A DNA stretch of 64,000 nucleotides from a virus (taxonomy: Duplodnaviria > Caudoviricetes), in the IMG/VR virus record IMGVR_UViG_3300038679_000051, positions 96,001-160,000 of that record; one strand, written 5' to 3'. Each line of letters begins with the position of its first letter. Position 1 is the stretch's first letter. Of this stretch, positions 9,569 through 24,639 are shown one piece after another. The position numbers were made by a program, and so were the translations under genes. The notes beneath the pieces were generated by a model. The model was not told the DNA's origin. It did no database searches and worked only from the letters and a program-made list of their open reading frames with translations.

Positions 9569-9599
9569 TCAAGCTCCTTTCTATGATTTGATTAGGTTT

Positions 9600-9655
9600 C
9601 CCATGACGGGGAGAGAACTCCCCGTTTCGACTAGTTACCATCTAGTCATCGTCAA
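9600..9655 (-). ncRNA. Degenerate or truncated type I hammerhead ribozyme (HH-A)
   Basis: UUGACGAU GACUAG-AUGGUAA-CUAGUC GAAA CGGGGAG-UUCU-CUCCCCG UC^AUGGG. Stems II and III are intact; the CUGANGA core is altered and the 5' stem I strand is missing. Confidence 0.55.
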
Positions 9656-9678
9656 TCAAAACGATTTTAATCTCCTTG

Positions 9679-9770
9679 CCCATTACAAGCACACCAACGG
9701 GCGGCGGACTTCTGTGCCTTATAACCCGTGTGGTGTGCTTGTTTCGATCATTAAGATCTCGTCAGATGGG
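9679..9770 (-). ncRNA. Type I hammerhead ribozyme with extended stem III (HH-B)
   Basis: CCCAU CUGACGA GAUC-UUAAU-GAUC GAAA CAAGCACACCA...UGGUGUGCUUG UA^AUGGG; predicted cut between 9684 and 9683. Confidence 0.9.
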
Positions 9771-9954
9771 TTTTACCCTTTCAATTATTCCGTTCGGCAA
9801 TTAAATGGCCTTGACGTGTGCCGCTCACGTCGAACATGATCGGTAACTAATTGAAGTGGCACCTCCTTTCGTGATCTCAAGGGTTTTTATCTTAGATCGT
9901 ACTTGTTCTTGCTCACTCCGTTGGTGTCCGTGCCGCCTTGCTCGCTCCGGCGGG

Positions 9955-10152
9955 TCACAGCTTGCGAAGACGTTTGTGCTGGTCACCTTCAACGTCAATA
10001 ATGACTTCACTTCCATCTTCACATTCTTCCAACTCTTCCTCCGTGCGTTTGCCCTCGTTCACCAACGTCTCGACAGCTTTCTCGTCCGAAATGACCCCTC
10101 TGTTTTGGTCACCGTTACAACCGTCGAACACGATCAGGGCAAATCTGCTCAT
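9955..10152 (-). CDS. Hypothetical acidic protein lying between HH-C and HH-B
   Basis: 65-aa ORF; SD UAAGGAG downstream of the HH-C cleavage site. Confidence 0.6.
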   Translation of the reverse strand: MSRFALIVFDGCNGDQNRGVISDEKAVETLVNEGKRTEEELEECEDGSEVIIDVEGDQHKRLRKL

Positions 10153-10193
10153 GTGTTTTCTCCTTAGAATGGGGTTTTAGGTGGGTTTCTTTT

Positions 10194-10253
10194 CCCGTGA
10201 CGGGGAGCGCTTGTTCCTCTCCCCGTTTCGACCATTCGGTCTCGTCAGACGGG
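10194..10253 (-). ncRNA. Type I hammerhead ribozyme (HH-C)
   Basis: CCCGU CUGACGA GACC-GAAU-GGUC GAAA CGGGGAG-AGGAACAAGCG-CUCCCCG UC^ACGGG. Stem I shows a compensatory A-U to G-C change relative to the other copies. Confidence 0.95.
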
Positions 10254-10329
10254 TTTGTTCTCCTTCAGTCAAGATTTTAAAATGTTTTTGGAAGTGCGGG
10301 TAAAAACCGTATTCCATCCTTGATGGGGT

Positions 10330-10614
10330 CTAAACTTTTCTCATCACTGTCCTGATTGGACATCGCAATTCTACCCATCCAGCCGCTTTACCTGCTTTGA
10401 AGATTATCTTCTTCGGTTTGTTGTTCCATTCATGATCAATGGACAGATCGAGCATTTCATTCAACTCATCGTAACTCAGTTCAACAGCTGGCTGTTCCAT
10501 CATTCCTTCAATGAGTTCATTTAATTCCTTAATTTTACTAACCACCTTAGTTAGCATTAATTTCCGTAATTCAGTTGCATCCAACAGTCTCTCTTCATTC
10601 ATTCTTTTCTCCAA
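10330..10614 (-). CDS. Hypothetical protein
   Basis: 94-aa ORF in a co-oriented run. Confidence 0.5.
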   Translation of the reverse strand: MEKRMNEERLLDATELRKLMLTKVVSKIKELNELIEGMMEQPAVELSYDELNEMLDLSIDHEWNNKPKKIIFKAGKAAGWVELRCPIRTVMRKV

Positions 10615-10626
10615 TCTTATCTGGAT

Positions 10627-10986
10627 CCCTCAATTTGGTTTGATTACTTTGCCCCGTCAATTCTTATTCCTTTAAAATTTTCTTTGTTTTTAGATGCAAG
10701 AAATTTTTCAATGGCTTTTCTTTCGTCTTTGCTTAAATCATAATCCGACATATTAAAATCAATTTCATCTTTACCATCCCAATCGATTTCACCATCATAT
10801 GTAAAAACGTATGCTATTGGTACAAAACTGCTTTTATCTTTTGTTCCAATTTTTTGTGCCCCTATGCCAGTGTAAACACAATCTGATTTTTCCCATGTAA
10901 CTATGCCTAATCTCCATCCTGATTCTAAAATTGCATCTATCTCTTTCCGCATGTTTACTCCTCCCTCAATTTGGTTTGATTACTTT
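10627..10986. repeat. 24-bp direct repeat (10627-10650, 10963-10986) flanking one gene
   Basis: ccctcaatttggtttgattacttt occurs twice; it is the 3' end of the vWA gene. Confidence 0.85.
10644..10952 (-). CDS. Hypothetical protein (direct-repeat-flanked cassette)
   Basis: 102-aa ORF with SD GGAGGAG upstream. Confidence 0.6.
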   Translation of the reverse strand: MRKEIDAILESGWRLGIVTWEKSDCVYTGIGAQKIGTKDKSSFVPIAYVFTYDGEIDWDGKDEIDFNMSDYDLSKDERKAIEKFLASKNKENFKGIRIDGAK

Positions 10987-12288
10987 TCCCCATGTGGGCA
11001 TTTGATTTGAGGATGATACGACATACCACAACATTGGGTATGATTTCTGTTCTGGCCATTCTAGATAACCGTCGGTGATGACTACGTTGACGTCACCGAT
11101 CAAACCGCGTTCTTCTGCCTCTTTCAGTGCTCTGACGATCGACGTCCCACCACGACCGTGGATTTTAATTTTCTTCCAATCACCTTTCCGGTATTTGCTG
11201 ACGTGTTCTATGCCATGATCAAATTCAATTAATCTGATTTTAGATCGGTAGGCGAGTTTTTCAATGTTGCTGAACGCTTCACTGATTTCATCCGGTCCCA
11301 TTGATCCAGACGTATCACAGAATACGCTTAGATCAACCATCGCCCTGCTGGTCGATCCCGGTATGCCGAATCTAGGGAGTCGGCGATTCAATCTGGAAAA
11401 CGTATTGCGTCTTCCGCCGCATTTCTTCCCCATCCATTCGTTCATCTCACGCATCCAATTAGTGCGTACTTCCTTCAATGCTTTGATGGCTTCTTCAAGA
11501 TGACCCGGTGCGTTTCCAGCGGACTTACATGTCTGTGCGACCATGCCATCAACAATCGCACGAGCATCATCCTCATTTGCCGTGCTGTTATCCCACATAC
11601 CATGATCATCAACCATTTCTGGTTTAGCACCGCACGTCGGACACGTATGTTCATCCTTCTCCTGACCCTGATCATCCTGATTTTGACTACCTCCACCACC
11701 TTGGCCTTGATTCTGGCCTTGATTCTGGCCTTGACCCTTCTGATTCTGGCCTTGACCCTTACCCTTACTCTGGTCATTTTTTGCATTCGGGTCGAAATGA
11801 ATGACCATTGCACCGCATGTCGGACAGATAGTAGAATTTTTCTTCAACCAGTCGTAATACTGTTCTGTGCCGAGATTGCTTTCCGGTGCCGTATACCATA
11901 CGACACTATTTGGAAGATAACATTTTTCGCTATAATCTTTGCCCACGATCTTGATGTTTGGATTATCTTTTGTGCCATTGACAATCGCATCAGCCGCGAT
12001 GTTCCAACATTCCTTGATCCTACTCATTTTCCTGATGCAGTGCAATCTGATGATATGATCAATTTCATGTATGATCACACATGCTAATCCCTCATTACTG
12101 AGACTATCGACGAATTCACGATTGTAGACCGAATCCACCGTGCCATCAGAAATGACCGACACGCCCATCGTTTTACAGTCTCTAGCATTTACCTCACGCC
12201 ACCTCATCATTGAAGCGAAAGTCCCATACCATGGCTTCCGCATAAGAAGTTGGCAGCGCACTTTTTGAATTCTTTCCATTTGGATCAT
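10966..12288 (-). CDS. DUF2201-type metallopeptidase-vWA protein (partner of the MoxR AAA)
   Basis: HEIDH zinc motif, WNIAADAIVN, a Q/G-rich linker, then DTSGSM MIDAS, GRGGT and VITDG. Confidence 0.9.
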   Translation of the reverse strand: MIQMERIQKVRCQLLMRKPWYGTFASMMRWREVNARDCKTMGVSVISDGTVDSVYNREFVDSLSNEGLACVIIHEIDHIIRLHCIRKMSRIKECWNIAADAIVNGTKDNPNIKIVGKDYSEKCYLPNSVVWYTAPESNLGTEQYYDWLKKNSTICPTCGAMVIHFDPNAKNDQSKGKGQGQNQKGQGQNQGQNQGQGGGGSQNQDDQGQEKDEHTCPTCGAKPEMVDDHGMWDNSTANEDDARAIVDGMVAQTCKSAGNAPGHLEEAIKALKEVRTNWMREMNEWMGKKCGGRRNTFSRLNRRLPRFGIPGSTSRAMVDLSVFCDTSGSMGPDEISEAFSNIEKLAYRSKIRLIEFDHGIEHVSKYRKGDWKKIKIHGRGGTSIVRALKEAEERGLIGDVNVVITDGYLEWPEQKSYPMLWYVVSSSNQMPTWGKVIKPN

Positions 12289-12359
12289 TTGTCACCTCCT
12301 TCTCTAGTATTTTTGTCAAACATAAACCGTGGGATGGAACAACAATTGAAAGGAACATC

Positions 12360-13415
12360 ATGTTCAACTGGATCAAAACTCAAAATTCTTTACCTCCTTT
12401 CATCGCAGTCGTCAACTGTGATGACTGCGGTGTTGAAATGACGAGGAAAATACGTCGCGAATCAGATTTACAAATTACTAAACATCATTGTAAACGATGT
12501 ACTGCGAAAAGACAATGGCAGGACCCAAAGTTTCGTGAACTCGTGGTTTCAAGCAGTAGGAAAATTTGGAATGACGAGGAACGTCGTACTAAAATGAGTA
12601 AGATACGAACTGATCCTATTCACGTTGCTAAACTCATTGAGAGGAATAAGACAATCAAACCAGACCCAATAAAGGCGTCGATTGCAGCTAAAGCAACTTG
12701 GCAGAAAATTTTATCGGATCATGAACGACATGTTGCTGCCATAAAAGCAAGAACGAGACAAGCAAAAGAAGCATGGACAAACGACGAATTTCGCAATAAG
12801 GTCGTCATGAATAATAGAAAAAATTGGCAAAACGATGAATATCGTACATCAATCGTCGAATCGTCGAAAGAATTGTGGAAAAATAAGGAGTATAGAGATA
12901 AGATACTCAATAAATTACAAGATCCGGAATATCGCATCAAAATGGCAGAGAAAATGCGCAATAAGTGGCGCACCGACGAACAATTTAGACAAAAAATGCG
13001 CGACCAACCAAAAGTTTCAAGCATTCAAAAGACGCTTTATTCCATATTAGATGATCTTAAAATCAATTATTTTAAAGAACGTGAAGATGGACCGTCAGAC
13101 AAAGAATGTATGATCGGTCCGTATCAATTCGATTGTGTCATTCCTCGTGGCAACAAAACGTTACTCATCGAATGTCAGGGTGATTATTGGCATTCAAAGC
13201 CGGACATCATCAGTAGAGATGCGGCAAAATCTTCTTATATAATGAATAATTTTCCAAATCAATATGAAATTAGATATCTTTGGGAACATGAATTTTCACA
13301 GAAAGATAGAATCGTCAATACTATTAAGCATTGGCTCGACATTAACCAGATCGACGTCGTTGACTTTGAATCACAAAATTGCGTGTCTAACGGCTCATTA
13401 ACTGATCGACGATGA
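12360..13415 (+). CDS. Putative homing endonuclease: basic helical repeats plus a DUF559/Vsr-like PD-(D/E)xK nuclease
   Basis: N-terminal CxxC...CxxC, repeated W.N.EYR.K units, C-terminal YQFDCVIP...LIECQGDYWH...IRYLWE; the only plus-strand gene in the left block. Confidence 0.75.
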   Translation: MFNWIKTQNSLPPFIAVVNCDDCGVEMTRKIRRESDLQITKHHCKRCTAKRQWQDPKFRELVVSSSRKIWNDEERRTKMSKIRTDPIHVAKLIERNKTIKPDPIKASIAAKATWQKILSDHERHVAAIKARTRQAKEAWTNDEFRNKVVMNNRKNWQNDEYRTSIVESSKELWKNKEYRDKILNKLQDPEYRIKMAEKMRNKWRTDEQFRQKMRDQPKVSSIQKTLYSILDDLKINYFKEREDGPSDKECMIGPYQFDCVIPRGNKTLLIECQGDYWHSKPDIISRDAAKSSYIMNNFPNQYEIRYLWEHEFSQKDRIVNTIKHWLDINQIDVVDFESQNCVSNGSLTDRR

Positions 13416-13999
13416 GGATTACGCTGTTCTCGGAGACATCCAATCACGATGAGACCGGCATCGTGCCGTAATCGCCGCCCTATCTGGATTAATGGCACAT
13501 CCTCCGCAACCTCTGAAATGACGACGTTGGTGTCCTTAACCAAATAATCGTTGATTCGTCTAGTCCCCGTTGGAAGATTAAAGTGAACGATGCCTTTGTC
13601 ATCGAACTTTTCAATCGTTCCCTTATCCAACATTTTCTTAATCAATTCATCGCGTTGTTTGATGATTTCCTCCGGTGGGGTGGGGATTTTACTTACCGCC
13701 TTGCGTTTGGATGCAATGATCTTTGGTATTCCGGCCATCAACGCATCTATGTCCGCATAATAATTGTTGTTGATGCGAAATTGTTTGCCTTGAATATAAA
13801 CGTTCCAATCAAACGTCTTGCCGTCAATTTCAATTTGCATTTGCGCAAGCAACAGGGAACCATACCTGGCAAATTGTGAACCTCTAGCTTCCGGAGAGAT
13901 GGAGATCACGTATCTCACGCCGTCAATCTTGGGCCATTTCTCCCCAAGTCTCTGTCTGACCAACGCATTGATCTCGTCTATCAATTCTTTGCCGTTCAT
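13259..13999 (-). CDS. Hypothetical protein; 3' end overlaps the convergent endonuclease
   Basis: 246-aa ORF with SD GAGGAG upstream. Confidence 0.55.
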   Translation of the reverse strand: MNGKELIDEINALVRQRLGEKWPKIDGVRYVISISPEARGSQFARYGSLLLAQMQIEIDGKTFDWNVYIQGKQFRINNNYYADIDALMAGIPKIIASKRKAVSKIPTPPEEIIKQRDELIKKMLDKGTIEKFDDKGIVHFNLPTGTRRINDYLVKDTNVVISEVAEDVPLIQIGRRLRHDAGLIVIGCLREQRNPHRRSVNEPLDTQFCDSKSTTSIWLMSSQCLIVLTILSFCENSCSQRYLISY

Positions 14000-14046
14000 T
14001 CTTGCTCCTCTCTTTCTTCGTCATGAGCGTCGTGACCAATTTCGTT

Positions 14047-14736
14047 TCAACATTCTTTCTCCTTTAACCATTCCCCAAACTTCTTGTCGGTCGCGTCGGC
14101 TCCCGTTTGCATTTCACCTACGAAGCGTTTAAACGTCTCGCTTCTTTCATCGTCGCCCAGTTTAATCAACACCGCATCGGCAGCCACGATGAAATGCATG
14201 AAATTGTTCTTATTGAGATGCACTCTTCGGTATGAGATCCAGTCGATCAACTTTCCAATTTCACCGAATTGCGACTGCAGTCGCAGACTGAGTTCTTTGG
14301 CCATCAGCTTCAAATTGTCCAGCGGGAAGTCGCCGGATTTCATCTTGTTCTTTTTCATTCGTTCTCTTCGCGTTTTCTGTTTCGGATCATAGATCAGAAG
14401 TCCGTCTTTGAACTTTATGTCGTCCGGCAATTTCGTGTAAGGATAGTCAATTACTATTGCACCGTATTTCTTTGCCAATTCACATGCTCTGTTTACGTCT
14501 TGACCGACAAAGACCGGTTTTTCGCTTACTCTTATGTTGTTCCAGTTGGTTTTAATCCAGGTCAGATCGGCGTCTTCCAACGATTCTTTCATGCAGGTAG
14601 CGCTTATTGCTGCGATGATCTCTTCTCTTCCACCGTAAATCACTTCACCGGTGGCGTTGATCAGTGGTTCTGGATTGACGCTCATCTCCCACGTGCCGTC
14701 CTCGTTTTTAACTGCTCCCAGCACTTCCATTTCCAT
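14047..14736 (-). CDS. Hypothetical protein
   Basis: 229-aa ORF; SD GAAAGGAGG directly downstream of HH-D. Confidence 0.65.
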   Translation of the reverse strand: MEMEVLGAVKNEDGTWEMSVNPEPLINATGEVIYGGREEIIAAISATCMKESLEDADLTWIKTNWNNIRVSEKPVFVGQDVNRACELAKKYGAIVIDYPYTKLPDDIKFKDGLLIYDPKQKTRRERMKKNKMKSGDFPLDNLKLMAKELSLRLQSQFGEIGKLIDWISYRRVHLNKNNFMHFIVAADAVLIKLGDDERSETFKRFVGEMQTGADATDKKFGEWLKEKEC

Positions 14737-14759
14737 GTTATCCTCCTTTCGATTAGGCT

Positions 14760-14816
14760 CCCATTAGGGGAGAAAATCCTCCCCTTTCATTCCTGCCACG
14801 GAAATCATCAGATGGG
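14760..14816 (-). ncRNA. Type I hammerhead ribozyme (HH-D) with an atypical U-U at the base of stem II
   Basis: CCCAU CUGAUGA UUUCC-GUGGCA-GGAAU GAAA GGGGAG-GAUUUU-CUCCCC UA^AUGGG. Confidence 0.8.
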
Positions 14817-15107
14817 CAAAGATGAGTGATAAAACTGAAGAACTAAATGTCCTTGTACTTCTTCACTGACCAGACCGTTTTCCAGCGGCGGATTGACGTC
14901 GTTCGAGAAATTTGCAAGGTGTCCATCCGGTACGGAAACGATCGAACAATGTGGATAACCGCTGCCAAAGTCTAAAGCAATTTTTCTTGCTTCTTCTTGA
15001 TTGAGATGTCCTGGAAGGACGATCGGCTTCACATCATCGTCGAGTCGTCCTTCCATGGTTGGAACTACGATGGTAACATTCATTTTGTCAGCGATCCCCT
15101 CGGTCAT
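14808..15107 (-). CDS. Hypothetical protein whose stop codon lies in the HH-D core
   Basis: Ends ...CCC ATC TGA TGA. Confidence 0.55.
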   Translation of the reverse strand: MTEGIADKMNVTIVVPTMEGRLDDDVKPIVLPGHLNQEEARKIALDFGSGYPHCSIVSVPDGHLANFSNDVNPPLENGLVSEEVQGHLVLQFYHSSLPI

Positions 15108-15113
15108 GACTGT

Positions 15114-15770
15114 TTATTTCTCCAGCACGTCCACTTTGATGTCGGCGATCGCTAAAGCGACGTTAGCGAATCCTGACGCGCCGAGCGTCTTGCGGGCGAT
15201 TTCAGCACGAACCGCTCTTTCCATCGTGCCGATCTTGGAGAGTTTCGTGCGGATTTCGATGATCTTCCGTTGGGCGTCATCGATCGCCTTTTCCAGCATT
15301 TCGTTGCGTTTGATCGCTTTCTTTTCCTCGTCGTTCAACTTCCGTTCCAGTTGCGCATCGTACAGGTTGTTGCAGTATGAGTGTTCTTTGTCAACCGAAA
15401 CGACCACGCTCAACATGAGCGTTTCTGCCTTTTCACACGGTCCCACGATTGACGCCTGCATGCTGCATTTCACTTTCACGTTCAGATCCTTGTACGCTTC
15501 CAGCAGCTTTTTCACTTTCGGCGTCCAGTAATTGGTCGCTGACTGAGAAGTCATCTTTTCGAAGCCGTCCTTGTTCTCTTTCAGTTCTTTTTTCGTCGCC
15601 GCCAGTTCGGCCACGATCTTTTTCTCCTCCACCATCAATTTGTTTTCAAATTCAGAGACCTTAATTGCCACCAGATCTCCCGTCGTCACCTGGGCGCTCA
15701 GCGTGGTGACGTTCTTCACATCGAGTTCTTTCTTCATCAGCATCTTCCTCCTTGAAAAGGTGGTTCCCAC
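15114..15770 (-). CDS. Coiled-coil hypothetical protein (likely start MLMKKE)
   Basis: Heptad-rich K/E sequence; SD AAGGAGG before MLMKK. Confidence 0.6.
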   Translation of the reverse strand: MGTTFSRRKMLMKKELDVKNVTTLSAQVTTGDLVAIKVSEFENKLMVEEKKIVAELAATKKELKENKDGFEKMTSQSATNYWTPKVKKLLEAYKDLNVKVKCSMQASIVGPCEKAETLMLSVVVSVDKEHSYCNNLYDAQLERKLNDEEKKAIKRNEMLEKAIDDAQRKIIEIRTKLSKIGTMERAVRAEIARKTLGASGFANVALAIADIKVDVLEK

Positions 15771-15787
15771 GTCCCCTTCTTGACTTT

Positions 15788-15849
15788 CCCATTAGGGGAG
15801 GATTTCCTCTCCCCTTTCGGCTGGTCGTCATCCAACCTCATCAGATGGG
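15788..15849 (-). ncRNA. Type I hammerhead ribozyme (HH-E)
   Basis: CCCAU CUGAUGA GGUUGG-AUGACGA-CCAGCC GAAA GGGGAG-AGGAAAUC-CUCCCC UA^AUGGG. Confidence 0.93.
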
Positions 15850-16128
15850 CCGTTGAAGTTCAGAGCCAGGATACGTTTCAAAAAATTCAGGATCTTCAGG
15901 ATCAAGACACGGAAATTCTTTCTTTATCCTTGCTGGAATCCCCATCAAATCATCCAGCGTCGCCCTGCGTTCAGTGTGATCATCCGTCAAATCACCCACG
16001 TTGTAAGCCGTCCCGTTCCCATTGACGCAATGCTCTTCTGCCACGTAGACCATTTTACCATTTTCCAAAACAAGAATTTGGTAAAGTCCGTCAGCATCCA
16101 CGTTAATTGACGTCCTAATCTTTGCCAT
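15841..16128 (-). CDS. Hypothetical protein whose stop codon lies in the HH-E core
   Basis: SD GAGGAGG upstream; ends ...CCC ATC TGA TGA. Confidence 0.6.
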   Translation of the reverse strand: MAKIRTSINVDADGLYQILVLENGKMVYVAEEHCVNGNGTAYNVGDLTDDHTERRATLDDLMGIPARIKKEFPCLDPEDPEFFETYPGSELQRPI

Positions 16129-16164
16129 CTGATTTCCTCCTCTTGAGTAAATCTGAACGTGGTC

Positions 16165-17820: not shown

Positions 17821-17829
17821 GCACCCCTC

Positions 17830-18282
17830 CTAATATACGGAAAATCCACCACAGTTCTGTAGAAATGTAATGAATTCCTTTAGGTGATCCAAATTAATTC
17901 TGTATGGACTGACCAGATCATCCCTACTGCCCTTGTACGTTTTCATATTGACAAACGCATTGGTTTTCTCGTCAATTACCAACGAATTTGTAGGAAGACG
18001 TAATTCATTGTCACCAAGAACAAAACCAAATTCGGTAGCCAGTGCTGGTTTGTTGATAATTTCGTTTAATTCCTCGGCTACGCGCAGACATTGTTCGTCG
18101 GTCAATCCCGCACCGTCGTTATACCTCATTGCAACGTACACTTCCTCAGAAATCAACTCATTATTGTTTCGTTTGTTGATGATGCCCAACAATTCATGTA
18201 GTGGATGCCATGACCAAATATTAGCCCTGAAATACTCGCCCTGTTCATTTCTCGGTTTAGTCCCGGTTACGTCCATCCCCAT
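17830..18282 (-). CDS. Conserved phage hypothetical protein
   Basis: MGMDVTG...GEYFRANIWSWHPL...NDGAGL...FLQNCGGFSVY motif. Confidence 0.7.
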   Translation of the reverse strand: MGMDVTGTKPRNEQGEYFRANIWSWHPLHELLGIINKRNNNELISEEVYVAMRYNDGAGLTDEQCLRVAEELNEIINKPALATEFGFVLGDNELRLPTNSLVIDEKTNAFVNMKTYKGSRDDLVSPYRINLDHLKEFITFLQNCGGFSVY

Positions 18283-19037
18283 TCATTTACCCTCCTTTTC
18301 GTCTCTCCATGTTTTATCTCCTCTCTAAGGGCTGGGTCCTTGACATATTGAAGTGCCCAACCATCCTGTTGCGCTGCTACCATACATATTTCCAGTGTCT
18401 GTTCTTTAACAAATTGAAGTGCGTAACAATTTTGTCTTACTGCTGCCATGCACATTTCCGGCGTCTGTTCTTTGTTGTTCGCAGAATATTTGACATATCT
18501 AAGTGCCCAACCATGTTGTTTTACTGCCGCCATACATATTTCTGGCGTTTGTTCTTTGACATATCGAAGTGCATCACCATCTTGTTGCACTGCTGCCATA
18601 CATATTTCTGGCGTCTGTTCTTTGACATATTCAAGTGCCGAACCATTTTGTTGTACTGCTGCCAGATATAATTCCGGCGTCTGTTCCTTGACATAATCGA
18701 GTGCAAAACCGTTTCGTTTTACTGCTACCATGCACAATTCCGGCGTCTGTTCCTTAACATAATGAAGTGCCAGACCATCTCGTTTTACCGCCGCTAGACA
18801 TATGTCTGGCGTCTGCTCTTCAACAAATTCAAGCGCTCGACGATTTTGTTGCACTGCCGCCATGCATATTTCAGGAAATTGCTCATTTAGGTGTTTGAGT
18901 ACATTCCCTAAACCTATTTCATCATTCATCAATTTCTTGACAATCGTTGCATCCTTCATTCGTTCATAATCAATCTTCCTCATTGCCTGGATCACGTCAT
19001 TTAATTGTTCTTTGGTTACGTTCGTCATCCAGTGCAC
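18267..19037 (-). CDS. DUF4116-like repeat protein (8 repeats)
   Basis: MHWMTNVTKEQL N-terminus; GTG start embedded in an upstream remnant. Confidence 0.85.
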   Translation of the reverse strand: MHWMTNVTKEQLNDVIQAMRKIDYERMKDATIVKKLMNDEIGLGNVLKHLNEQFPEICMAAVQQNRRALEFVEEQTPDICLAAVKRDGLALHYVKEQTPELCMVAVKRNGFALDYVKEQTPELYLAAVQQNGSALEYVKEQTPEICMAAVQQDGDALRYVKEQTPEICMAAVKQHGWALRYVKYSANNKEQTPEMCMAAVRQNCYALQFVKEQTLEICMVAAQQDGWALQYVKDPALREEIKHGETKRRVNEWGWT

Positions 19038-19137
19038 GTTTTATCTCCTCTCTAAGGGCTGGGTCCTTGACATACTTAAGTGCCTGACCATCTTGTCTTA
19101 CTGCCGCTGCCAGCCGTCGTTGCAGTCGTTGCTCCTT
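19035..19137 (-). pseudogene. Remnant of a DUF4116-type 3' end
   Basis: KEQRLQRRLAAVRQDGQALKYVKDPALREEIKR follows the stop of the 19138-19458 ORF; it supplies the SD and GTG of the next gene. Confidence 0.65.
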
Positions 19138-19458
19138 TCATCTCCATTCCCACAGACATGAGTTTATTTTGATGCGTTTATTGCTTTTCCGCAACCTGTC
19201 GCCCAGGTCTTTCAGAGATGACTTATTGAACCAGAAACCAACTCGTTCCCATTTATCCTTGGGATACCAATCACAAGCGACAACATCATTTTTTACTACT
19301 TCCAGAAACAACCGCCCATCATCCAACAGGAGAACGACCAGATTCTCCCTGACGGCAAACGCCTTGAAATCATAAGCTTTGCCCATGATTTCTTCTCGTT
19401 CAAATTCATTTGCCGTTCTGGGTTTCATATACAGTTGTGCAAGTGCATTCATTCCCAT
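19138..19458 (-). CDS. Hypothetical protein
   Basis: 106-aa ORF with SD AAGGAGG upstream. Confidence 0.6.
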   Translation of the reverse strand: MGMNALAQLYMKPRTANEFEREEIMGKAYDFKAFAVRENLVVLLLDDGRLFLEVVKNDVVACDWYPKDKWERVGFWFNKSSLKDLGDRLRKSNKRIKINSCLWEWR

Positions 19459-19476
19459 TTTTAATCCTCCTTGATG

Positions 19477-19665
19477 TCAGAACTCGTCCACATCGCCATA
19501 TTTGGTTAGAACGGCGATGACTGCCTCTTTGATTTGCCCAGCGATTTTCTCAACGTCTGCAGTCCCATCACGGATCTTAATTAATTCAAGATCAATAAAG
19601 ATCTCGACGTCTTCCTTCTTCTGTGAAGTCAGAATAATGTTAACGTCCAGTTGGCTGACTGTCAT
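19477..19665 (-). CDS. Hypothetical protein
   Basis: 62-aa ORF with SD AAGGAG upstream. Confidence 0.5.
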   Translation of the reverse strand: MTVSQLDVNIILTSQKKEDVEIFIDLELIKIRDGTADVEKIAGQIKEAVIAVLTKYGDVDEF

Positions 19666-19904
19666 CGCTCGTTTCTCCTTAATGGTAGTTTTCTGAGTTC
19701 GTTCTCGATTGCTTTCCCAATATAAGGGCTGAACATAGATAACAATGCCGGTGAAATCTTTTTCTTTACCTTCGGTTCCATCCGTTCAATATTTGTGGAG
19801 GGAACCTGCCGAGCACAACATTTCTTCTTCTTTTTGCCGCTGCCACACGAACATGGCTTATTCATGTTTGCAGTGTCCTTGACATATGCCGTGGTACTTG
19901 CCAT
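19662..19904 (-). CDS. SEC-C zinc-motif protein
   Basis: NKPCSCGSGKKKKKCC. Confidence 0.7.
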   Translation of the reverse strand: MASTTAYVKDTANMNKPCSCGSGKKKKKCCARQVPSTNIERMEPKVKKKISPALLSMFSPYIGKAIENELRKLPLRRNER

Positions 19905-19921
19905 ATCTCATTGGTTCTCTC

Positions 19922-20248
19922 CTACCATTCAGTCCACACGTCACACACCAGTTTAGTGAGGTTCGCTTCTTCGATTTCGTACTTGCCCCGCATTTCCGGT
20001 AAGGCGTAAACGTATTTCCCGTCTTCCTTGATGACGAACGTACAAAAGCCCGAATCAAAGAAGACGTCGGTACCGTCTGGTACTTCAAACGAGCCGTGCT
20101 CGTCGATTTTATCATCGATATTGAAACCAGGACTTTCCTTGATGGCTTTCTTGGAGATTAAAACCATCTTCATTCGGTCGTGGCAAACGGCGTAGTTGAG
20201 CGTCGTCTTTCCACGTTTGGTCTTGATCTTATCCTTTATCTGTGTCAT
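19922..20248 (-). CDS. Hypothetical protein
   Basis: 108-aa ORF whose start overlaps the upstream stop. Confidence 0.55.
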   Translation of the reverse strand: MTQIKDKIKTKRGKTTLNYAVCHDRMKMVLISKKAIKESPGFNIDDKIDEHGSFEVPDGTDVFFDSGFCTFVIKEDGKYVYALPEMRGKYEIEEANLTKLVCDVWTEW

Positions 20249-20622
20249 TTGGTCATATCGTTTCTAGTGTTTTCATCCATTCCATACAGCATATCACGGA
20301 CGGCCTTAATTGCTTTCTCAAGGTCTTCTGATGAGATCTCATCAGGCTCGCTCATGAGATGGTCCCACATGTATTCGGCCAATGCAGGGATGAACGAATT
20401 GTCTAAATCATTCACGGTCGTTGCGGTTCCGCTCATCATCATGACTACGGAAAAATCTACTGCCCTCATCTGCCAACCAATGACGTACTTCATGCTGAGA
20501 TAACAAAGATTGTTCAGTTCTTCAGTGGTTGGCACGTGCGTAGTAAAATCAACCAGTACCGGTGCGTTCTTGTTCTTGTCCTCAATCATCTTAATCCAAT
20601 CATGTAGTTCTTTTCTTGTCAT
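20245..20622 (-). CDS. Hypothetical protein
   Basis: 125-aa ORF with SD AAGGAG upstream. Confidence 0.55.
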   Translation of the reverse strand: MTRKELHDWIKMIEDKNKNAPVLVDFTTHVPTTEELNNLCYLSMKYVIGWQMRAVDFSVVMMMSGTATTVNDLDNSFIPALAEYMWDHLMSEPDEISSEDLEKAIKAVRDMLYGMDENTRNDMTK

Positions 20623-20682
20623 GGCGTTCTCCTTAAATGGTTATTAGTGTTTTCTGAGTTCGTTTTATTCATCCGTTCCTCG

Positions 20683-20928
20683 TTATTCATTAAGGCGCTG
20701 GAAGTTCTTAAAATCATCACTCCAAATTTGACGACTCGCATCGTTTTCAAATTTCACGATCATTTTGGGTCGACCGTCTTCAAATGGTTCAACGTCAGTC
20801 ACTACACCAGTCATTCCTTTACTGACATGAAGATGCTGTTTTTCGCCATCAGACCAGAAAACATCATTCAAAACGACAACCCGATCACCCTTTATCATTT
20901 TCTTTTCCCTTTCTTTTGTCATTTTCAT
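20683..20928 (-). CDS. Small SH3/KOW-like protein
   Basis: IKGDRVVV...KGMTGVVTDV...MIVKFEN pattern. Confidence 0.55.
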   Translation of the reverse strand: MKMTKEREKKMIKGDRVVVLNDVFWSDGEKQHLHVSKGMTGVVTDVEPFEDGRPKMIVKFENDASRQIWSDDFKNFQRLNE

Positions 20929-20953
20929 TTATTATTTCCCAACATCTTAGTTT

Positions 20954-21012
20954 CCCATTAGGGGATATGAGATCCCCTTTCGACTAGTTACTAGCTAGTC
21001 TCATCAGATGGG
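20954..21012 (-). ncRNA. Type I hammerhead ribozyme (HH-F)
   Basis: CCCAU CUGAUGA GACUAG-CUAGUAA-CUAGUC GAAA GGGGAU-CUCAU-AUCCCC UA^AUGGG. Confidence 0.93.
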
Positions 21013-21119
21013 TCAATTATGGTTCCGAGGCATATCCCATACAGTAATCACATTCATAAATCATATGCATATGACATCTACATCCCGGCGGTCTACTTCT
21101 GACATCCGCCTCTTCCAAA

Positions 21120-21413
21120 TCACACCTGAAAAACATCCGGTGCACGCCAGGTGATCCATTCCCTATCCCAGAATCTCAAATCACTCTTTTCATCTGCTGT
21201 TCGGACCATAAACATACCATTCCCCATATCCATAACAAACCATCTATAAACACCATCTGGTTTGTCAGACATATAACAGACCGGTCGTTCCCCGTTCTCC
21301 AACAGAAAAACATCACACTCCCAACATTTCACAATCACATGCGCACCAACTAGTTCAGCCAACGCATCGAGATCATCATGGTTTTTCACGTTATAATCCC
21401 CCTGAACAATCAC
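21120..21413 (-). CDS. Hypothetical protein (G/T-biased codons)
   Basis: 97-aa ORF. Confidence 0.5.
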   Translation of the reverse strand: MIVQGDYNVKNHDDLDALAELVGAHVIVKCWECDVFLLENGERPVCYMSDKPDGVYRWFVMDMGNGMFMVRTADEKSDLRFWDREWITWRAPDVFQV

Positions 21414-21604
21414 AAAACACGTACCAACTCAGTTTCATCATCAAACGAAATAACTTCATTTATTTCACAACTAGTAGTATAATACACAATGTCACGCTTC
21501 GAATAATTAAAGTTAGAACAACCCATAATCTCTTGAACAGACTTAAACGTCAAATCATCACTCAAAAAAACACCATCAGACTTCCGCCTAATCCTAAATC
21601 TCAT
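21410..21604 (-). CDS. Hypothetical protein (G/T-biased codons)
   Basis: 64-aa ORF whose stop overlaps the downstream start. Confidence 0.5.
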   Translation of the reverse strand: MRFRIRRKSDGVFLSDDLTFKSVQEIMGCSNFNYSKRDIVYYTTSCEINEVISFDDETELVRVL

Positions 21605-21806
21605 CCAAATGCCTCATCACTCATCGCATTCCCTCCCAATCATCGAAACAATCCCGTTGTTGGTGTTGGTTGAAGAACCCTTTAAGTGCGTGTAAGAGGC
21701 TTGATTATCGCAAATATATTATATATTTTAATTATTTCACTAATAGGATATTAACAGCTTGCTAATGCTTACTTAATAGCTCCCGTATGCGACCCTAATG
21801 CACATA

Positions 21807-22081
21807 GAGCAAGCGTTGACGCTCATTGTGCAGCTCATTGTGCACTGACTTATTGCACACCGAGCAAGCGTTGACGCTCATTGTGCATCAATACGTTCTG
21901 GGTTAGTTTGAACCAGAACAAAGAAAACCGCTATCCACATTTAAGATGCTCCGGTTTTCCCGGCTACATTTTACGTGGAAATCACCCAATCTAACGCTTG
22001 CGGCGTTAGCTCTAAGGGTGACTTGTTGCGGCAAAACGTTGACGCTCATTGTGCATCAATACGTTCTGGGTTAGTTTGAAC
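21807..22081. repeat. Direct-repeat cluster: perfect 45-bp repeat (21869-21913, 22037-22081) and 26-bp repeat (21807-21832, 21862-21887)
   Basis: cgttgacgctcattgtgcatcaatacgttctgggttagtttgaac occurs twice and contains the last codons and stop of the receiver-like gene. Confidence 0.9.
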
Positions 22082-22384
22082 TGGATCACACCGAACCAAC
22101 TCGGTAACACTAATTCTGATGTACCCCATTGCCACTAACGCACGAGCGATGTTTTCTCTCCCCACTGGATTCATAGTTACTAATACGACCGCTTCTGGTT
22201 GATAGGCAGGATTTTGTTCCAGCCAATTGGTTATATCATATCCCGTCTTCTCCTCACCTAAATCGTGGTCCAAGTACAGGACATCCCAGGGACCATTCTG
22301 TAATGCCACAATTCCGTCATCATATGTTCTGGCTGTGCGGTGGACGGTCATTACTCTTAAATCATCAATCAGAAGCATTTTCAT
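22046..22384 (-). CDS. Stand-alone divergent receiver domain of the cyclic-phosphate-processing (cREC) type
   Basis: LLIDDLR...ARTYDDGI..L....DVLYLDHDLGEEKTGYDI.NWLE...VT.NPVGRENI; the LDHDLG motif typifies this jumbo-phage family. Confidence 0.75.
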   Translation of the reverse strand: MKMLLIDDLRVMTVHRTARTYDDGIVALQNGPWDVLYLDHDLGEEKTGYDITNWLEQNPAYQPEAVVLVTMNPVGRENIARALVAMGYIRISVTELVRCDPVQTNPERIDAQ

Positions 22385-22395
22385 ATGGCATCTCC

Positions 22396-22650
22396 TCAGA
22401 CATCTGGTTCCCGTTCTTTATGCCTGGCAAAACGCGACCGCGTTTCTTCTGCTCCCGCGTTATAACCAGCACACCATCGTTGGTTCCAGGCATTCAAATG
22501 AATCTCAATAAATTTCCCGACGACATCCATAGCAACTTCATGTGTGCAACCTGTCGTTTTACGAATATAAATTGCCATCTCTCGGTGCCAATTTGGTGTT
22601 TCGGCATTTTGAAGTTCATCGTGATCCATTTTGGCACCCTCCTCCTTCAT
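22396..22650 (-). CDS. Hypothetical protein
   Basis: 84-aa ORF. Confidence 0.45.
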   Translation of the reverse strand: MKEEGAKMDHDELQNAETPNWHREMAIYIRKTTGCTHEVAMDVVGKFIEIHLNAWNQRWCAGYNAGAEETRSRFARHKEREPDV

Positions 22651-22800
22651 GATTTACCCACAAGAATCCGTCCCAGTCGTTTGTGACCAGCATGTTTGTA
22701 CCATTTCTTCCACCAAATGGCGACTTCTTTTGCCGACCATTCCTTGTTGAATTCCTCGGCAGCTTGTTCTGCGGCTACATCCATTCCGTCTGGGATCATG
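22647..22800 (-). CDS. Small conserved hypothetical protein (likely start MIPDG)
   Basis: EVAIWWKKWYKHAGHKRLGRILV motif; SD AAGGAG upstream. Confidence 0.5.
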
Positions 22801-23145
22801 TCATTTCTCCTTGATCGTTTTATCACAATGCCAGTAACAATCATCACCTTGTTGGAGATTCCAAACACGGAATGATACTGCTTTAAATGACGGTTTGCCG
22901 TCGACTCCTGGTCGAGCAGCATTTTCGAAAACGCCCACAGGGACTTTCAAGATGTAATTCAGTGCAGCAGCAGGATTGACAACAACTACACCTTCGTACT
23001 CCTCATCTTTATCACCAGCAGCAGTTTCACTGAATGCATCCTCATCACCAACGTGGACCAACTCGATGCGAAGCTGGTCTGCCAACTGAATCTGATCCTC
23101 GGTCGGTACATGTCTTGAAATGAATGCGAATCTCTTTTTTCTCAT
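22801..23145 (-). CDS. Hypothetical protein
   Basis: FAFISRHVPTEDQ..LA...GVVVVNPAAAL...VGVFENA.R motif; SD GGGAGG upstream. Confidence 0.6.
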   Translation of the reverse strand: MRKKRFAFISRHVPTEDQIQLADQLRIELVHVGDEDAFSETAAGDKDEEYEGVVVVNPAAALNYILKVPVGVFENAARPGVDGKPSFKAVSFRVWNLQQGDDCYWHCDKTIKEK

Positions 23146-23253
23146 CTCTCCCTCCCTTTCGTTTGGTGGATGTTATTTGTGGGGTTTCTACATATACAAG
23201 CCTATTGTCATATCTGACCGATTTCGGGGGATATAACAACATATACGTTTCTA

Positions 23254-23439
23254 TTAGATGACATCATAACCGTTGAGGAAGATAACACCATCACCGCGAC
23301 GAGCACGACGGTGTGCAGCTTTCTTCAGCTGCTTTTTGATTTTCTGAGAACAACGGGTCTTCGCACGACAAGACCATGACCACTTCCAGTCGTTGGAGAA
23401 ATATTCCTTCTCTACGATCTTGCTGGTGCTTCGACGCAT
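23254..23439 (-). CDS. Small basic protein inside the inverted-repeat segment
   Basis: SD GAAAGGAGG just after the HH-G cleavage site. Confidence 0.55.
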   Translation of the reverse strand: MRRSTSKIVEKEYFSNDWKWSWSCRAKTRCSQKIKKQLKKAAHRRARRGDGVIFLNGYDVI

Positions 23440-23466
23440 GCCACACCTCCTTTCAGTTTGGTGGCT

Positions 23467-23523
23467 CCCATTAGGGGAGGTTTCCCTCCCCTTTCGACCG
23501 TGCCACCGGTCTCCTCAGATGGG
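23467..23523 (-). ncRNA. Type I hammerhead ribozyme (HH-G)
   Basis: CCCAU CUGAGGA GACCG-GUGGCA-CGGUC GAAA GGGGAGG-GAAA-CCUCCCC UA^AUGGG. Confidence 0.93.
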
Positions 23524-23956
23524 CTGCAGCACCCTAGCTTCTTCCTGCACGCGGGTTCTCTTCGGCTTACTGGGGTACTTTGCATATGAACCAATCCAAT
23601 GAAGAGTTGGTTCATGTGCTTTTCCCCCATCTTCAGCAGCTAGTTTCGGTCGAGGGCTTTCGACCGTTGTGCGGTGCTGCATTCTTATTTTTTACGAATA
23701 TCGCATAAGAAACCTCCTTCTTTAATTGTACCGGGATCTACGGTCAGGAGCACAAGCATATTTTGCCTCCCAGTATCTAATGGCTCCCTCCGGACTGGGT
23801 CTTAATTCACAAGAATGTCGCACCTCCTTTCTTGGTTTGTATGTTCATCGGCAATAAAAGCGTATATGTTGCTATATCCCCCGAAATCGGTCAGATATGA
23901 CAATAGGCTTGTATATGTTGCCACCGGGGATGATTTATTGTCCCCGGTGGCACAGG

Positions 23957-24163
23957 TCATTTGGCTTGCAGCGCAGCCTCGATAGCTGCCTGCAGGTCGA
24001 TTACCTGCATGTGGCGTGCACGATTCAACATCTTTATGTAATTCGCGGCTTCATCGACCGTCCCACGATAGACGGTCTGACCACTTCTTTTCCTGATTTC
24101 CACCATCTTCTTGTCTGGGGACGGGAAGCATTTCAGTCCCAACTGGCACAGGTTTTCATTCAT
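23957..24163 (-). CDS. Hypothetical protein
   Basis: 68-aa ORF with SD AAGGAGGUG upstream. Confidence 0.55.
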   Translation of the reverse strand: MNENLCQLGLKCFPSPDKKMVEIRKRSGQTVYRGTVDEAANYIKMLNRARHMQVIDLQAAIEAALQAK

Positions 24164-24199
24164 TGGACACCTCCTTTTTCTGACTTTACTCTACTCGAT

Positions 24200-24287
24200 T
24201 AGGATCACAATGATCCCTGGGTAGACAACCCTCTTTGTGGAAGGTTGTCTACCGAGGGATCATACCCTCGGCGGGCTTTCACCCGGT
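24200..24287 (-). other. Multi-hairpin intergenic RNA structure including a 21-bp stem
   Basis: Arms 24210-24230 and 24243-24263 pair at 20 of 21 positions; flanking CGGGU-GAAA-GCCCG hairpin. Confidence 0.7.
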
Positions 24288-24291
24288 GTGA

Positions 24292-24507
24292 CTAGTCCTG
24301 CGAGGCTTCCCATTCAACTTCACCCAACGGGAAGGGTCCGAACCCCTTGGTACAGACATGGGTCTTTTCTCCCGCACCCATGACATAGCTGATGACCCGA
24401 TCCGCCGTTTCTCCGGCAATACGGATCTTGTCACCTTTCTTGAGATTCGCACCAGCCGCTCCCACTTTCAAGCTGCCCGTGTCGTTGTTCGTCACTTTGT
24501 TCGCCAT
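24292..24507 (-). CDS. Small beta-barrel (SH3/KOW-like) protein, paralog 2
   Basis: MANKVTNNDTGSLKVG...KGDKIRI...THVCTKGFGPFPLGEVE; SD GGGAGGUG upstream. Confidence 0.7.
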   Translation of the reverse strand: MANKVTNNDTGSLKVGAAGANLKKGDKIRIAGETADRVISYVMGAGEKTHVCTKGFGPFPLGEVEWEASQD

Positions 24508-24577
24508 TCTACACCTCCCTCTCAAATTAGAAGATTATCGTCGGGTGAAACACTCACCTTACGAAACCTTCTGGTTT

Positions 24578-24639
24578 CCCATTAGGGAGAGAAAATCCTC
24601 CCCCTTTCGGCTGGGGACCACCCAGCCTCATCAGATGGG
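24578..24639 (-). ncRNA. Type I hammerhead ribozyme (HH-H)
   Basis: CCCAU CUGAUGA GGCUGGG-UGGUC-CCCAGCC GAAA GGGGGAG-GAUUUU-CUCUCCC UA^AUGGG. Confidence 0.93.

What the first reader, a model, noticed from the sequence alone, without database searches (positions are those of the whole stretch)
9600..24639. Array of eight co-oriented hammerhead ribozymes punctuating a huge-phage accessory transcript
Seen: seven complete type I hammerheads (9679-9770, 10194-10253, 14760-14816, 15788-15849, 20954-21012, 23467-23523, 24578-24639) and one degenerate copy (9600-9655). All are intergenic and on the coding (minus) strand. Each has CUGANGA and GAAA cores, an NUH site, stems II and III with different sequences but conserved pairing, and a CCCAU/AUGGG stem I that covaries to CCCGU/ACGGG in HH-C. 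Most cut a short distance upstream of a strong SD. Established: hammerheads self-cleave to give 5'-OH and 2',3'-cyclic phosphate ends, and scattered copies are known in bacterial and phage DNA. Inference: the phage uses protein-free processing to split one long early transcript into units whose 5'-OH ends resist 5'-monophosphate-dependent decay, analogous to RNase III sites in T7 early RNA. The conserved ribozyme repeats may also act as recombination joints for gene-cassette shuffling. I know of no described system with this density and regularity.
Basis: partly seen in the sequence, partly recalled or inferred. Interest (0 to 1): 0.93.

Follow-up and report, generated by a model that had tools for sequence, protein, structure and literature searches.

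The report
Seven hammerhead ribozymes between phage genes
A 320-kb groundwater phage carries seven intact self-cutting RNA motifs (hammerhead ribozymes) and one decayed copy at gene junctions within 15 kb; this is a large example of an arrangement known in phages since 2011, whose purpose has still not been tested.

Summary
Window 9600-24639, minus strand, has seven type I hammerheads and one relic. A strict descriptor finds 6, against 0.01 expected in shuffles. These seven are the only hammerheads in the 320,399-bp phage genome. Rfam 15 misses them, but a model built from them finds 47 more copies in other phage contigs. Across 40 distinct sequences the core is invariant and stems II and III covary strongly. 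The ribozymes sit exactly at gene junctions: the upstream stop codon abuts the ribozyme or is its core UGA, and the next start codon lies 28-75 nt after the cut. Clustered hammerheads flanking phage genes, the pseudoknot and the mRNA-processing idea were all published in 2011 (PMC3088659), so this is a new, unusually large member of a known kind. "One long early transcript" is not shown, and a likely plus-strand gene interrupts the block. Cleavage and RNA ends remain untested. Other first readers of this scan had noted the same stretch of this genome.

The parts
24572..24639 (-). Type I hammerhead (24578-24639) plus its 3' tail. Cut after 24583 (CUA). Loop II UGGU pairs with ACCA at 24572-24575.
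   Evidence: Model R1 76.4 bits; descriptor hit; MFE fold is a three-way junction; pseudoknot. Upstream ORF 24640-24846 ends in a TAA that abuts the ribozyme; next start at 24507.
23461..23523 (-). Type I hammerhead (23467-23523) plus tail. Cut after 23472. Loop II GUGGC pairs with GCCAC at 23461-23465.
   Evidence: R1 69.6 bits. The core UGA is the stop of ORF 23515-23682; next start at 23439. Lies inside the 73-nt inverted repeat pair.
20948..21012 (-). Type I hammerhead (20954-21012) plus tail. Cut after 20959. Loop II UAGU pairs with ACUA at 20948-20951.
   Evidence: R1 66.5 bits.
15781..15849 (-). Type I hammerhead (15788-15849) plus tail. Cut after 15793. Loop II UGAC pairs with GUCA at 15781-15784.
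   Evidence: R1 75.2 bits. The core UGA is the stop of ORF 15841-16128; next start at 15743.
14756..14816 (-). Variant type I hammerhead (14760-14816): U.U at 10.1/11.1 and only a 3-bp pseudoknot (GGC/GCC). Cut after 14765. Activity uncertain.
   Evidence: R1 64.1 bits; found only with one stem II mismatch allowed. The core UGA is the stop of ORF 14808-15107; next start at 14736.
10194..10253 (-). Type I hammerhead with stem I CCCGU/ACGGG and a GUC cut site (after 10199). No pseudoknot found near stem I.
   Evidence: R1 57.5 bits; only weak Rfam hit, RF03152 at 26.7 bits against a cut-off of 56.3. Next start at 10152.
9667..9770 (-). Type I hammerhead (9679-9770) with a long branched stem III. 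Cut after 9684. Loop II UUAAU pairs with AUUAA at 9667-9671, 7 nt after stem I.
   Evidence: R1 54.2 bits.
9595..9655 (-). Degenerate hammerhead relic: C3 changed to U and no 5' strand of stem I; stems II and III, GAAA and GUC kept. Its stem II matches the 20954 copy and its stem III matches the 10194 copy.
   Evidence: Partial R1 hit at 9606-9647, 31.5 bits, model positions 13-55; sequence; repeat family D12.
22046..22384 (-). cREC_REC gene, a predicted 2',3'-cyclic-phosphate processing receiver domain, inside the array. A link to the ribozymes is possible but not shown.
   Evidence: PF20274, E 3.6e-19, 69.7 bits against a cut-off of 27; the only copy in the genome.

Best explanation
These are cis-acting, pseudoknot-stabilised type I hammerhead ribozymes placed at intercistronic junctions of minus-strand accessory-gene transcripts in a 320-kb phage. 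Each ribozyme is transcribed just after, or overlapping, the stop codon of the upstream gene. Stems II and III and the 5-bp stem I form, and loop II pairs with the 4-5 bases that follow stem I, which holds stems I and II parallel. The RNA then cuts itself after H17. The upstream product keeps its stop codon and ends in two stable hairpins with a 2',3'-cyclic phosphate. The downstream product starts with 5'-OH-AUGGG, then a short leader of 28-75 nt, a Shine-Dalgarno sequence and the next gene. The likely result is that neighbouring genes of a polycistronic RNA become separate molecules whose stability and translation are uncoupled. Shown here: motif, covariation, pseudoknot and junction placement. 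Inferred from the ribozyme class: the cleavage itself, the end chemistry, and any effect on decay or translation.
For: Six strict descriptor hits against 0.01 expected, all on one strand. They are the only hammerheads of any topology in the genome. All seven fold to the three-way junction. Family alignment A2 (40 distinct sequences from this and other phage contigs): C3-A9, G12-A14, A15.1-U16.1 are invariant and H17 is only A or C. 98.2% of cells are paired against 75.7% in shuffles and at most 45% with slid partners; 13 of 19 pairs change on both sides. Pseudoknot: cognate loop/tail pairs beat non-cognate pairs within the window (permutation p 0.0016) and in the family (26 of 29 with at least 4 Watson-Crick pairs; p below 5e-5). 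Junction placement: in 27 of 34 distinct sites the upstream stop is within 10 nt, abuts, or is the core UGA, and the median distance from cut to next start is 37.5 nt. The flanking genes are unrelated to each other, so the conserved unit is the ribozyme plus its tail. Published precedent: clustered prophage hammerheads cleave in vitro and in E. coli; the pseudoknot is needed for fast cleavage at 0.5 mM Mg; in haloviruses HF1/HF2 a transcript 5' end was mapped within 3 nt of a hammerhead site (PMC3088659).
Against: No cleavage assay and no RNA-end data exist for this phage. No Rfam hammerhead model reaches its cut-off. One copy (14760) has a mispair next to the core, one copy (10194) has no pseudoknot, and one is a relic, so not all are likely to be equally active. 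A likely plus-strand gene at 12360-13415 breaks the block into more than one unit. Promoter and terminator scans are uninformative. Stem I is almost invariant in sequence, which simple processing does not explain; part of that invariance comes from how the family was collected.
Confidence: 0.7

Rival explanations
1. The ribozymes mainly mark the edges of exchangeable gene cassettes. They spread and rearrange together with, or between, unrelated small genes, and RNA cleavage is secondary, or serves the element rather than phage gene expression.
For: The same ribozyme flanks unrelated genes. Copies are mosaics: the relic combines stem II of the 20954 copy with stem III of the 10194 copy. DNA run X4 has minority joints (about 5-6% of depth) that join 10253, the first base of one ribozyme, to 20947, 7 nt past another, and join 12307 to 23464, 3 nt past a ribozyme. 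It also has a loose end at 18276 that reads into a hammerhead 3' half. The segment 22052-24349 has 2-2.4 times the DNA depth of the rest in two runs. The subclass is scattered over unrelated phages.
Against: The joints rest on single contigs with only 21-30 letters on one side and could not be re-examined. Contigs that encode the DUF2201 protein show only the reference arrangement. No recombinase, integrase or reverse transcriptase was seen in the array. The cognate pseudoknot covariation shows selection for catalysis itself.
Confidence: 0.13
2. Cleavage is regulated rather than constitutive. Ribosomes terminating on the core UGA, or next to the ribozyme, hinder folding, so cutting reports on translation of the upstream gene and tunes expression of the downstream gene.
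For: The core UGA is the stop codon at 3 of 7 window sites and 6 of 34 family sites, and the stop abuts or lies within 10 nt at a further 21. Perreault et al. raise regulated cleavage for phage hammerheads.
Against: Tight packing of stop and ribozyme could simply reflect genome compaction. About one in three ORFs that run into CCCAUCUGA would stop at that UGA by frame alone. No ligand-binding or switch element was found.
Confidence: 0.1
3. Segments between two ribozymes are released and ligated into circular or spliced RNAs, using the shared stem I to bring the ends together.
For: All copies share the stem I sequence, so the 5' AUGGG of a released segment could pair with the CCCAU of the ribozyme at its own 3' end. 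The idea is raised in PMC3088659 and by other first readers.
Against: The pseudoknot tail matches only the loop II of its own, upstream ribozyme, so a ribozyme re-formed across a segment would lack it. No RtcB or Rnl2-type ligase was found in the phage. Perreault et al. looked for such products and found none. No back-splice joint appeared in the two RNA runs, though contigs are a poor test.
Confidence: 0.04
4. The copies are inert repeats, either decayed ribozymes or chance look-alikes, with no present function.
For: One copy is clearly decayed and one has a mispair next to the core. Rfam models do not score them.
Against: The core is invariant while the stems change by compensatory pairs, and each pseudoknot covaries. 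0.01 hits are expected by chance.
Confidence: 0.03

Closest known systems
Clustered hammerhead ribozymes flanking genes in prophages (Perreault et al. 2011, PMC3088659; e.g. the triple arrangements of Agrobacterium tumefaciens around ardA, Clostridium scindens and Azorhizobium caulinodans)
   Same: Several hammerheads lie close together on one strand, flanking single genes or short blocks of small, non-conserved phage genes. The same hypothesis was proposed: long phage transcripts are processed into gene-length mRNAs.
   Different: Here there are seven intact copies plus a relic in 15 kb of a 320-kb phage, all of one type I subclass with the same stem I. The published tested arrays are triples and mix types. 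Nothing here has been tested at the bench.
[quoted passage not shown] 2011, about 40% of representatives)
   Same: A 4-5 bp Watson-Crick contact takes the place of loop-loop tertiary contacts, and it covaries. The paper shows that this contact is needed for fast cleavage at 0.5 mM Mg.
   Different: Here loop II pairs with the single-stranded tail 1-3 nt after an open 5-bp stem I. The mutational work in the paper was done on a type II construct.
RAGATH-1 / PK hammerhead (Rfam RF03152; crystal structure in PMC11300833)
   Same: Type I topology with a short 5-bp stem I. It is the only Rfam family that gives any hit.
   Different: In RAGATH-1 helix II is itself a pseudoknot formed with an upstream hairpin. 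The window copies have an ordinary stem II hairpin and no upstream hairpin, and the score of 26.7 bits is far below the cut-off of 56.3.
Ribozyme-rich neighbourhoods in phage-like DNA (hammerhead, twister, pistol and others near each other; reviews PMC6155905 and PMC6765202)
   Same: One relative locus (L158) has two hammerheads of this subclass and an Rfam-level pistol ribozyme about 400 nt apart on one strand. The ORFs between them are small and of unknown function.
   Different: The window has hammerheads only; no other Rfam ribozyme class was found.
RNase III processing of the phage T7 early polycistronic RNA (from general knowledge)
   Same: An intercistronic cut separates the genes of one transcript and leaves structured 3' ends.
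   Different: That cut is made by a host protein on a double-stranded RNA hairpin and leaves 5'-phosphate and 3'-OH ends. Here the RNA would cut itself and leave 5'-OH and cyclic-phosphate ends. This is an analogy, not a relationship.

Membership tests
Hammerhead ribozyme | Conserved core: C3 U4 G5 A6 N7 G8 A9, G12 A13 A14, A15.1-U16.1 pair, H17 (not G) | tested here: met
   Present in 7 of 8 window copies. Invariant in 39 of 39 full-length distinct family sequences, with H17 only A or C. The relic at 9600-9655 fails because C3 is U.
Hammerhead ribozyme | Three helices around the core, supported by compensatory changes | tested here: met
   98.2% of cells paired; 13 of 19 pairs change on both sides; covariation score 0.44 against 0.12 in shuffles; slid controls reach at most 45% paired. 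MFE folds agree. Stem I hardly varies (one covarying position), partly because of how the family was collected.
Hammerhead ribozyme | No mispair directly next to the core (10.1-11.1, 1.1-2.1, 15.1-16.1), the criterion of Perreault et al. | tested here: met
   Met by six copies. Not met by 14760-14816, which has U.U at 10.1/11.1.
Hammerhead ribozyme | [quoted passage not shown] | tested here: met
   A loop II / 3' tail pseudoknot of 4-5 bp in 5 window copies and 3 bp in 2; none in 10194-10253. Family-wide, 26 of 29 have at least 4 bp, permutation p below 5e-5.
Hammerhead ribozyme | Site-specific self-cleavage giving 2',3'-cyclic phosphate and 5'-OH ends | not testable with these tools
   The RNA runs were available only as contigs, which cannot show RNA ends.
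Rfam hammerhead families (RF00163, RF00008, RF02276, RF02275, RF02277, RF03152) | Score at or above the family's gathering cut-off | tested here: not met
   No hits at gathering in the window or in ten relative loci. The best hit is RF03152 at 26.7 bits against 56.3. The class is assigned on core, helices and covariation, not on these models.
RAGATH-1 (PK) hammerhead | Helix II replaced by a pseudoknot with the loop of an upstream hairpin (helix IV) | tested here: not met
   All copies have a normal stem II hairpin. The upstream-hairpin part of the RF03152 alignment is poorly matched.
Clustered phage/prophage hammerheads (Perreault 2011) | Several hammerheads in close proximity flanking single genes or short gene blocks in a phage genome | tested here: met
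   Seven plus one on one strand within 15 kb of a complete phage record with terminal repeats, at stop/start junctions.
cREC_REC (PF20274), for the gene at 22046-22384 | Pfam score above the gathering cut-off | tested here: met
   69.7 bits against 27, E 3.6e-19. Its activity on cyclic phosphates is a published prediction only (PMC7824862).

The most novel reading that the evidence does not exclude
The hammerheads are the boundaries of exchangeable gene cassettes. Modules of unrelated accessory genes are joined to each other exactly at ribozyme edges, at the first base of a ribozyme or 3-7 nt after its 3' end. Phage populations would then shuffle, delete and duplicate cassettes at these points, and each cassette would arrive with its own RNA-processing signal. 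The single cREC enzyme inside the array may deal with the cyclic-phosphate ends the ribozymes leave.
Probability: 0.12. Interest if true: 0.7.

Novelty: new member of a known kind. Interest (0 to 1): 0.4.

Why it matters
What hammerheads do in bacteria and phages has been an open question since 2011. The processing hypothesis has precedent but has not been tested functionally. This locus is a compact natural test case in a complete 320-kb phage genome. It has seven ribozymes of one subclass with predicted cut sites, natural 'mutants' (a relic, a copy with a core-adjacent mispair, a copy without the pseudoknot), and the same DNA appears in two metatranscriptome libraries. It also shows that Rfam 15 misses a widespread phage subclass (5-bp stem I CCCRU/AYGGG, often an extra U after A9, loop II/tail pseudoknot). 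That subclass could be added as a model. It does not change what is known about how hammerheads work.

Tried and rejected
- Rfam at gathering cut-offs gave nothing in the window or in ten relative loci apart from a tRNA and a pistol ribozyme. In E-value mode only RF03152 hit, at 26.7 bits.
- RNA evidence: two metatranscriptome runs hold parts of the region, but only as low-depth contigs. None of the listed contigs bridges or ends exactly at a cut site. Contigs also break at the ribozyme repeats in the DNA runs, and DNA carry-over cannot be excluded. Transcription and cleavage are therefore neither shown nor refuted.
- Relatives of this phage: none found through the AAA ATPase peptides, megablast against GenBank phages, or tblastx of metagenome loci that carry the motif. 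The 229-aa protein downstream of one ribozyme has no homologue apart from itself. Syntenic conservation could therefore not be tested.
- Whole-record scans of metagenome contigs were not possible.
- cREC-ribozyme link: 50 other phage loci with cREC relatives have no hammerhead of this model. Twelve of them show tRNA arrays and a tmRNA instead, so the link is not general.
- RNA repair partners in the phage: no RtcB and no Rnl2-type ligase. The T4 Rnl1 search had no working control. Only sub-threshold kinase-like hits were found.
- Type II and type III hammerhead descriptors found none in the genome.
- Co-duplication of genes with ribozymes was rejected for the 15788 and 14760 neighbours. It holds only for the two 68/71-aa paralogues around 24578-24639.
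- Promoter and terminator scans gave counts at or below shuffle expectation.
- Variant contexts: contigs that encode the DUF2201 protein show only the reference arrangement.
- The supplements of PMC3088659 held as text do not contain this stem I/core string.
- Pfam, PHROGs, NCBIfam and PADLOC gave no function for most array genes.
Full report
CONTEXT. The window is bases 96001-160000 of a 320,399-bp IMG/VR phage record with direct terminal repeats, rated complete. The DNA recurs almost unchanged in groundwater and coal metagenomes.

OBSERVATION. Reading the minus strand at the stated coordinates shows the claimed motifs directly:
- a 5-nt stem I strand, then CUGANGA;
- a stem II hairpin, then GAAA;
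- a G+C-rich stem III hairpin closed by A15.1-U16.1;
- an A or C at position 17, then the other stem I strand.

A strict descriptor finds six sites, all on the minus strand, against a mean of 0.01 in 200 dinucleotide shuffles. When one stem II mismatch is allowed, the seventh copy (14760-14816) appears; it has U.U at 10.1/11.1. Nothing else convincing appears in the whole genome. Descriptors for type II and type III find none. The copy at 9600-9655 is a relic: C3 is U and the 5' strand of stem I is missing. All seven intact copies fold on their own into the three-way junction.

WHY RFAM IS SILENT. No Rfam 15 family reaches its cut-off in the window. With permissive filters only RF03152 (RAGATH-1 hammerhead) touches one copy, at 26.7 bits against a cut-off of 56.3. 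I built model R1 from the seven copies. It recovers them at 54-76 bits and the relic at 31.5 bits.

THE FAMILY ELSEWHERE.
- Pattern scans of IMG/VR for the shared stem I plus core gave 36 loci. R1 confirmed 47 copies outside the window.
- A metagenome scan added more singletons in unrelated contigs.
- On the 40 distinct sequences of alignment A2 the core is invariant.
- Stems II and III are 96-98% paired, and 12 of their 14 pairs change on both sides. Shuffled and slid controls are far lower.
- Most relatives carry an extra U between A9 and G10.1. I recall this variation being reported in some viroid hammerheads; I did not check that here.
- Rfam does not detect the relatives either. One relative locus does have an Rfam-level pistol ribozyme next to two of these hammerheads.

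Loop II is complementary to the bases 1-3 nt after stem I, and the pair differs from copy to copy:
- UGGU/ACCA
- GUGGC/GCCAC
- UAGU/ACUA
- UGAC/GUCA
- UUAAU/AUUAA, in this case 7 nt downstream of stem I

Cognate loop/tail pairs beat non-cognate pairs (permutation p 0.0016 in the window). In the wider family, 26 of 29 have at least 4 Watson-Crick pairs, with p below 5e-5. This is the pseudoknot contact that Perreault et al. (PMC3088659) found in about 40% of hammerheads and showed to be needed for fast cleavage at 0.5 mM Mg. It means these are not 'minimal' hammerheads, and that selection acts on catalysis. Copy 10194-10253 lacks the contact, and 14760-14816 has only 3 bp. I found it independently, before opening the scan's earlier notes, and tested it.

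PLACEMENT.
- The upstream ORF ends in the UGA of the CUGA core at three window sites. At a fourth its TAA abuts the ribozyme.
- The next gene, with a strong Shine-Dalgarno sequence, starts 28-75 nt after the cut.
- Over 34 distinct sites in all loci, 27 have the upstream stop within 10 nt, abutting, or in the core. The median distance from cut to next start is 37.5 nt.
- The cut is always 3' of the stop codon, so the upstream message keeps its stop.
- Because the topology is type I, the upstream product keeps stems II and III at its 3' end, and the downstream product begins with 5'-OH-AUGGG.
- The genes on either side are unrelated to each other, except for two 82%-identical small paralogues around 24578-24639. 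Repeat analysis shows that the conserved unit is just the ribozyme plus its tail.

GENE CONTENT. Most array genes have no known family. Those that do:
- three DUF4116 proteins;
- a DUF2201 VWA/metallopeptidase protein and an AAA_5 ATPase;
- a cREC_REC protein.

A plus-strand ORF at 12360-13415 has a codon score like real genes and is also called by others' gene finders. The array is therefore probably not one uninterrupted minus-strand transcript. Nothing shows that it is 'early'.

WHAT IS KNOWN.
- Perreault et al. 2011 state that multiple hammerheads often flank individual genes or short gene blocks in prophages.
- They propose that long phage transcripts are processed into operon- or gene-length mRNAs.
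- They show that triple arrangements cleave in vitro and in E. coli.
- Reviews repeat this and call the biological role open.
- A 2026 paper treats type I hammerheads in DNA phages as already described.
One lies next to a gene I read, from its HExxH-containing translation, as ArdC-like, i.e. anti-restriction; I did not run it against any family library.

The window's seven plus one is the largest array I saw, but it is the same kind of thing.

MECHANISM AND RIVALS. I commit to cis self-cleavage at intercistronic junctions that splits polycistronic RNA into units with a structured, cyclic-phosphate 3' end and a 5'-OH leader (0.7). The rivals are:
- ribozymes as cassette boundaries (0.13);
- translation-coupled regulation (0.1);
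- circularisation of inter-ribozyme segments (0.04), which is disfavoured because the tail matches only its own ribozyme's loop and no RtcB or Rnl2 ligase is encoded;
- inert repeats (0.03).

LEADS.
- DNA run X4 has minority contigs that join 10253 to 20947 and 12307 to 23464, both at ribozyme edges. It also has a loose end at 18276 that reads into a hammerhead 3' half. The segment 22052-24349 has 2-2.4 times the depth of the rest in two DNA runs. These fit cassette exchange, but they rest on short contig sides.
- The single cREC gene lies inside the array. cREC is predicted to process 2',3'-cyclic phosphates (PMC7824862). In other phages its relatives sit among tRNA genes rather than ribozymes. 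This phage has just one tRNA and a tmRNA, about 80 kb away from the cREC gene.

VERDICT. This is a new, large member of a known kind. Cleavage and RNA ends remain to be shown.

Noticed in passing
window 22046-22384 (-): A cREC_REC (PF20274) protein, predicted in the literature to process 2',3'-cyclic phosphates, lies inside the ribozyme array and is the only one in the genome. In 50 other phage loci its relatives are not near hammerheads, and in the 12 of those loci scanned with Rfam they lie among tRNA arrays. This phage has only one tRNA and a tmRNA, far away, and no RtcB or Rnl2 ligase was detected.
   Followed up: partly
window 23183-23255 and 23853-23925: A 73-nt inverted repeat (92% complementary) encloses 597 nt that hold hammerhead 23467-23523 and several strong Shine-Dalgarno sequences followed by short ORFs with poor codon scores. 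On one transcript the arms would form a long double-stranded RNA. One RNA contig joins the arms on opposite strands, which may be an assembly effect.
   Followed up: partly
window 22052-24349: This segment (the cREC gene through to the small paralogue gene) has 2-2.4 times the DNA depth of the rest of the phage in two metagenome runs. That suggests a second co-occurring genome or an extra copy shares it.
   Followed up: no
window 10253/20947, 12307/23464, 18276: Minority contigs in DNA run X4 (about 5-6% of depth) join these points, which lie at the first base of a hammerhead or 3-7 nt past its 3' end. A loose end at 18276 reads into a hammerhead 3' half. These may be structural variants with breakpoints at ribozyme edges.
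   Followed up: partly
window 12360-13415 (+): A 351-aa plus-strand ORF has a gene-like codon score and a weak REase_MTES_1575 match (E 0.0015). It lies in the middle of the minus-strand array and converges on minus-strand ORF 13259-13999, with a 157-nt overlap.
   Followed up: partly
window 25006-25363 and 24900-24990 (-): Three to four copies of a repeat of about 40 nt, found nowhere else in the genome, are followed by a G-rich tract of about 90 nt in a 41% G+C genome. Both sit at the head of the minus-strand block, next to a divergent plus-strand gene. They may be tandem promoters or a leader structure.
   Followed up: partly
window 24292-24507 and 24640-24846 (-): Two small proteins (71 and 68 aa), 82% identical, lie on either side of hammerhead 24578-24639, with a 342-nt repeat period. 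This is the only case where a ribozyme's two neighbouring genes are paralogues of each other.
   Followed up: yes
window 8503-9568 and 18267-19037 (-): Three DUF4116 repeat proteins share 66-nt periodic internal repeats. One of them starts 36 nt after the relic ribozyme.
   Followed up: no
L158:838-907 (-): A pistol ribozyme (RF02679, 56.7 bits) lies about 400 nt from two hammerheads of this subclass on the same strand of another phage contig, forming a mixed-class ribozyme array.
   Followed up: no
L154:281-2715 (+): Another phage contig has a gene I read as ArdC-like from its translation (not checked against any family library), followed by three hammerheads of this subclass about 500 nt apart. 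Each hammerhead separates single small genes.
   Followed up: partly
I did not examine it.
   Followed up: no
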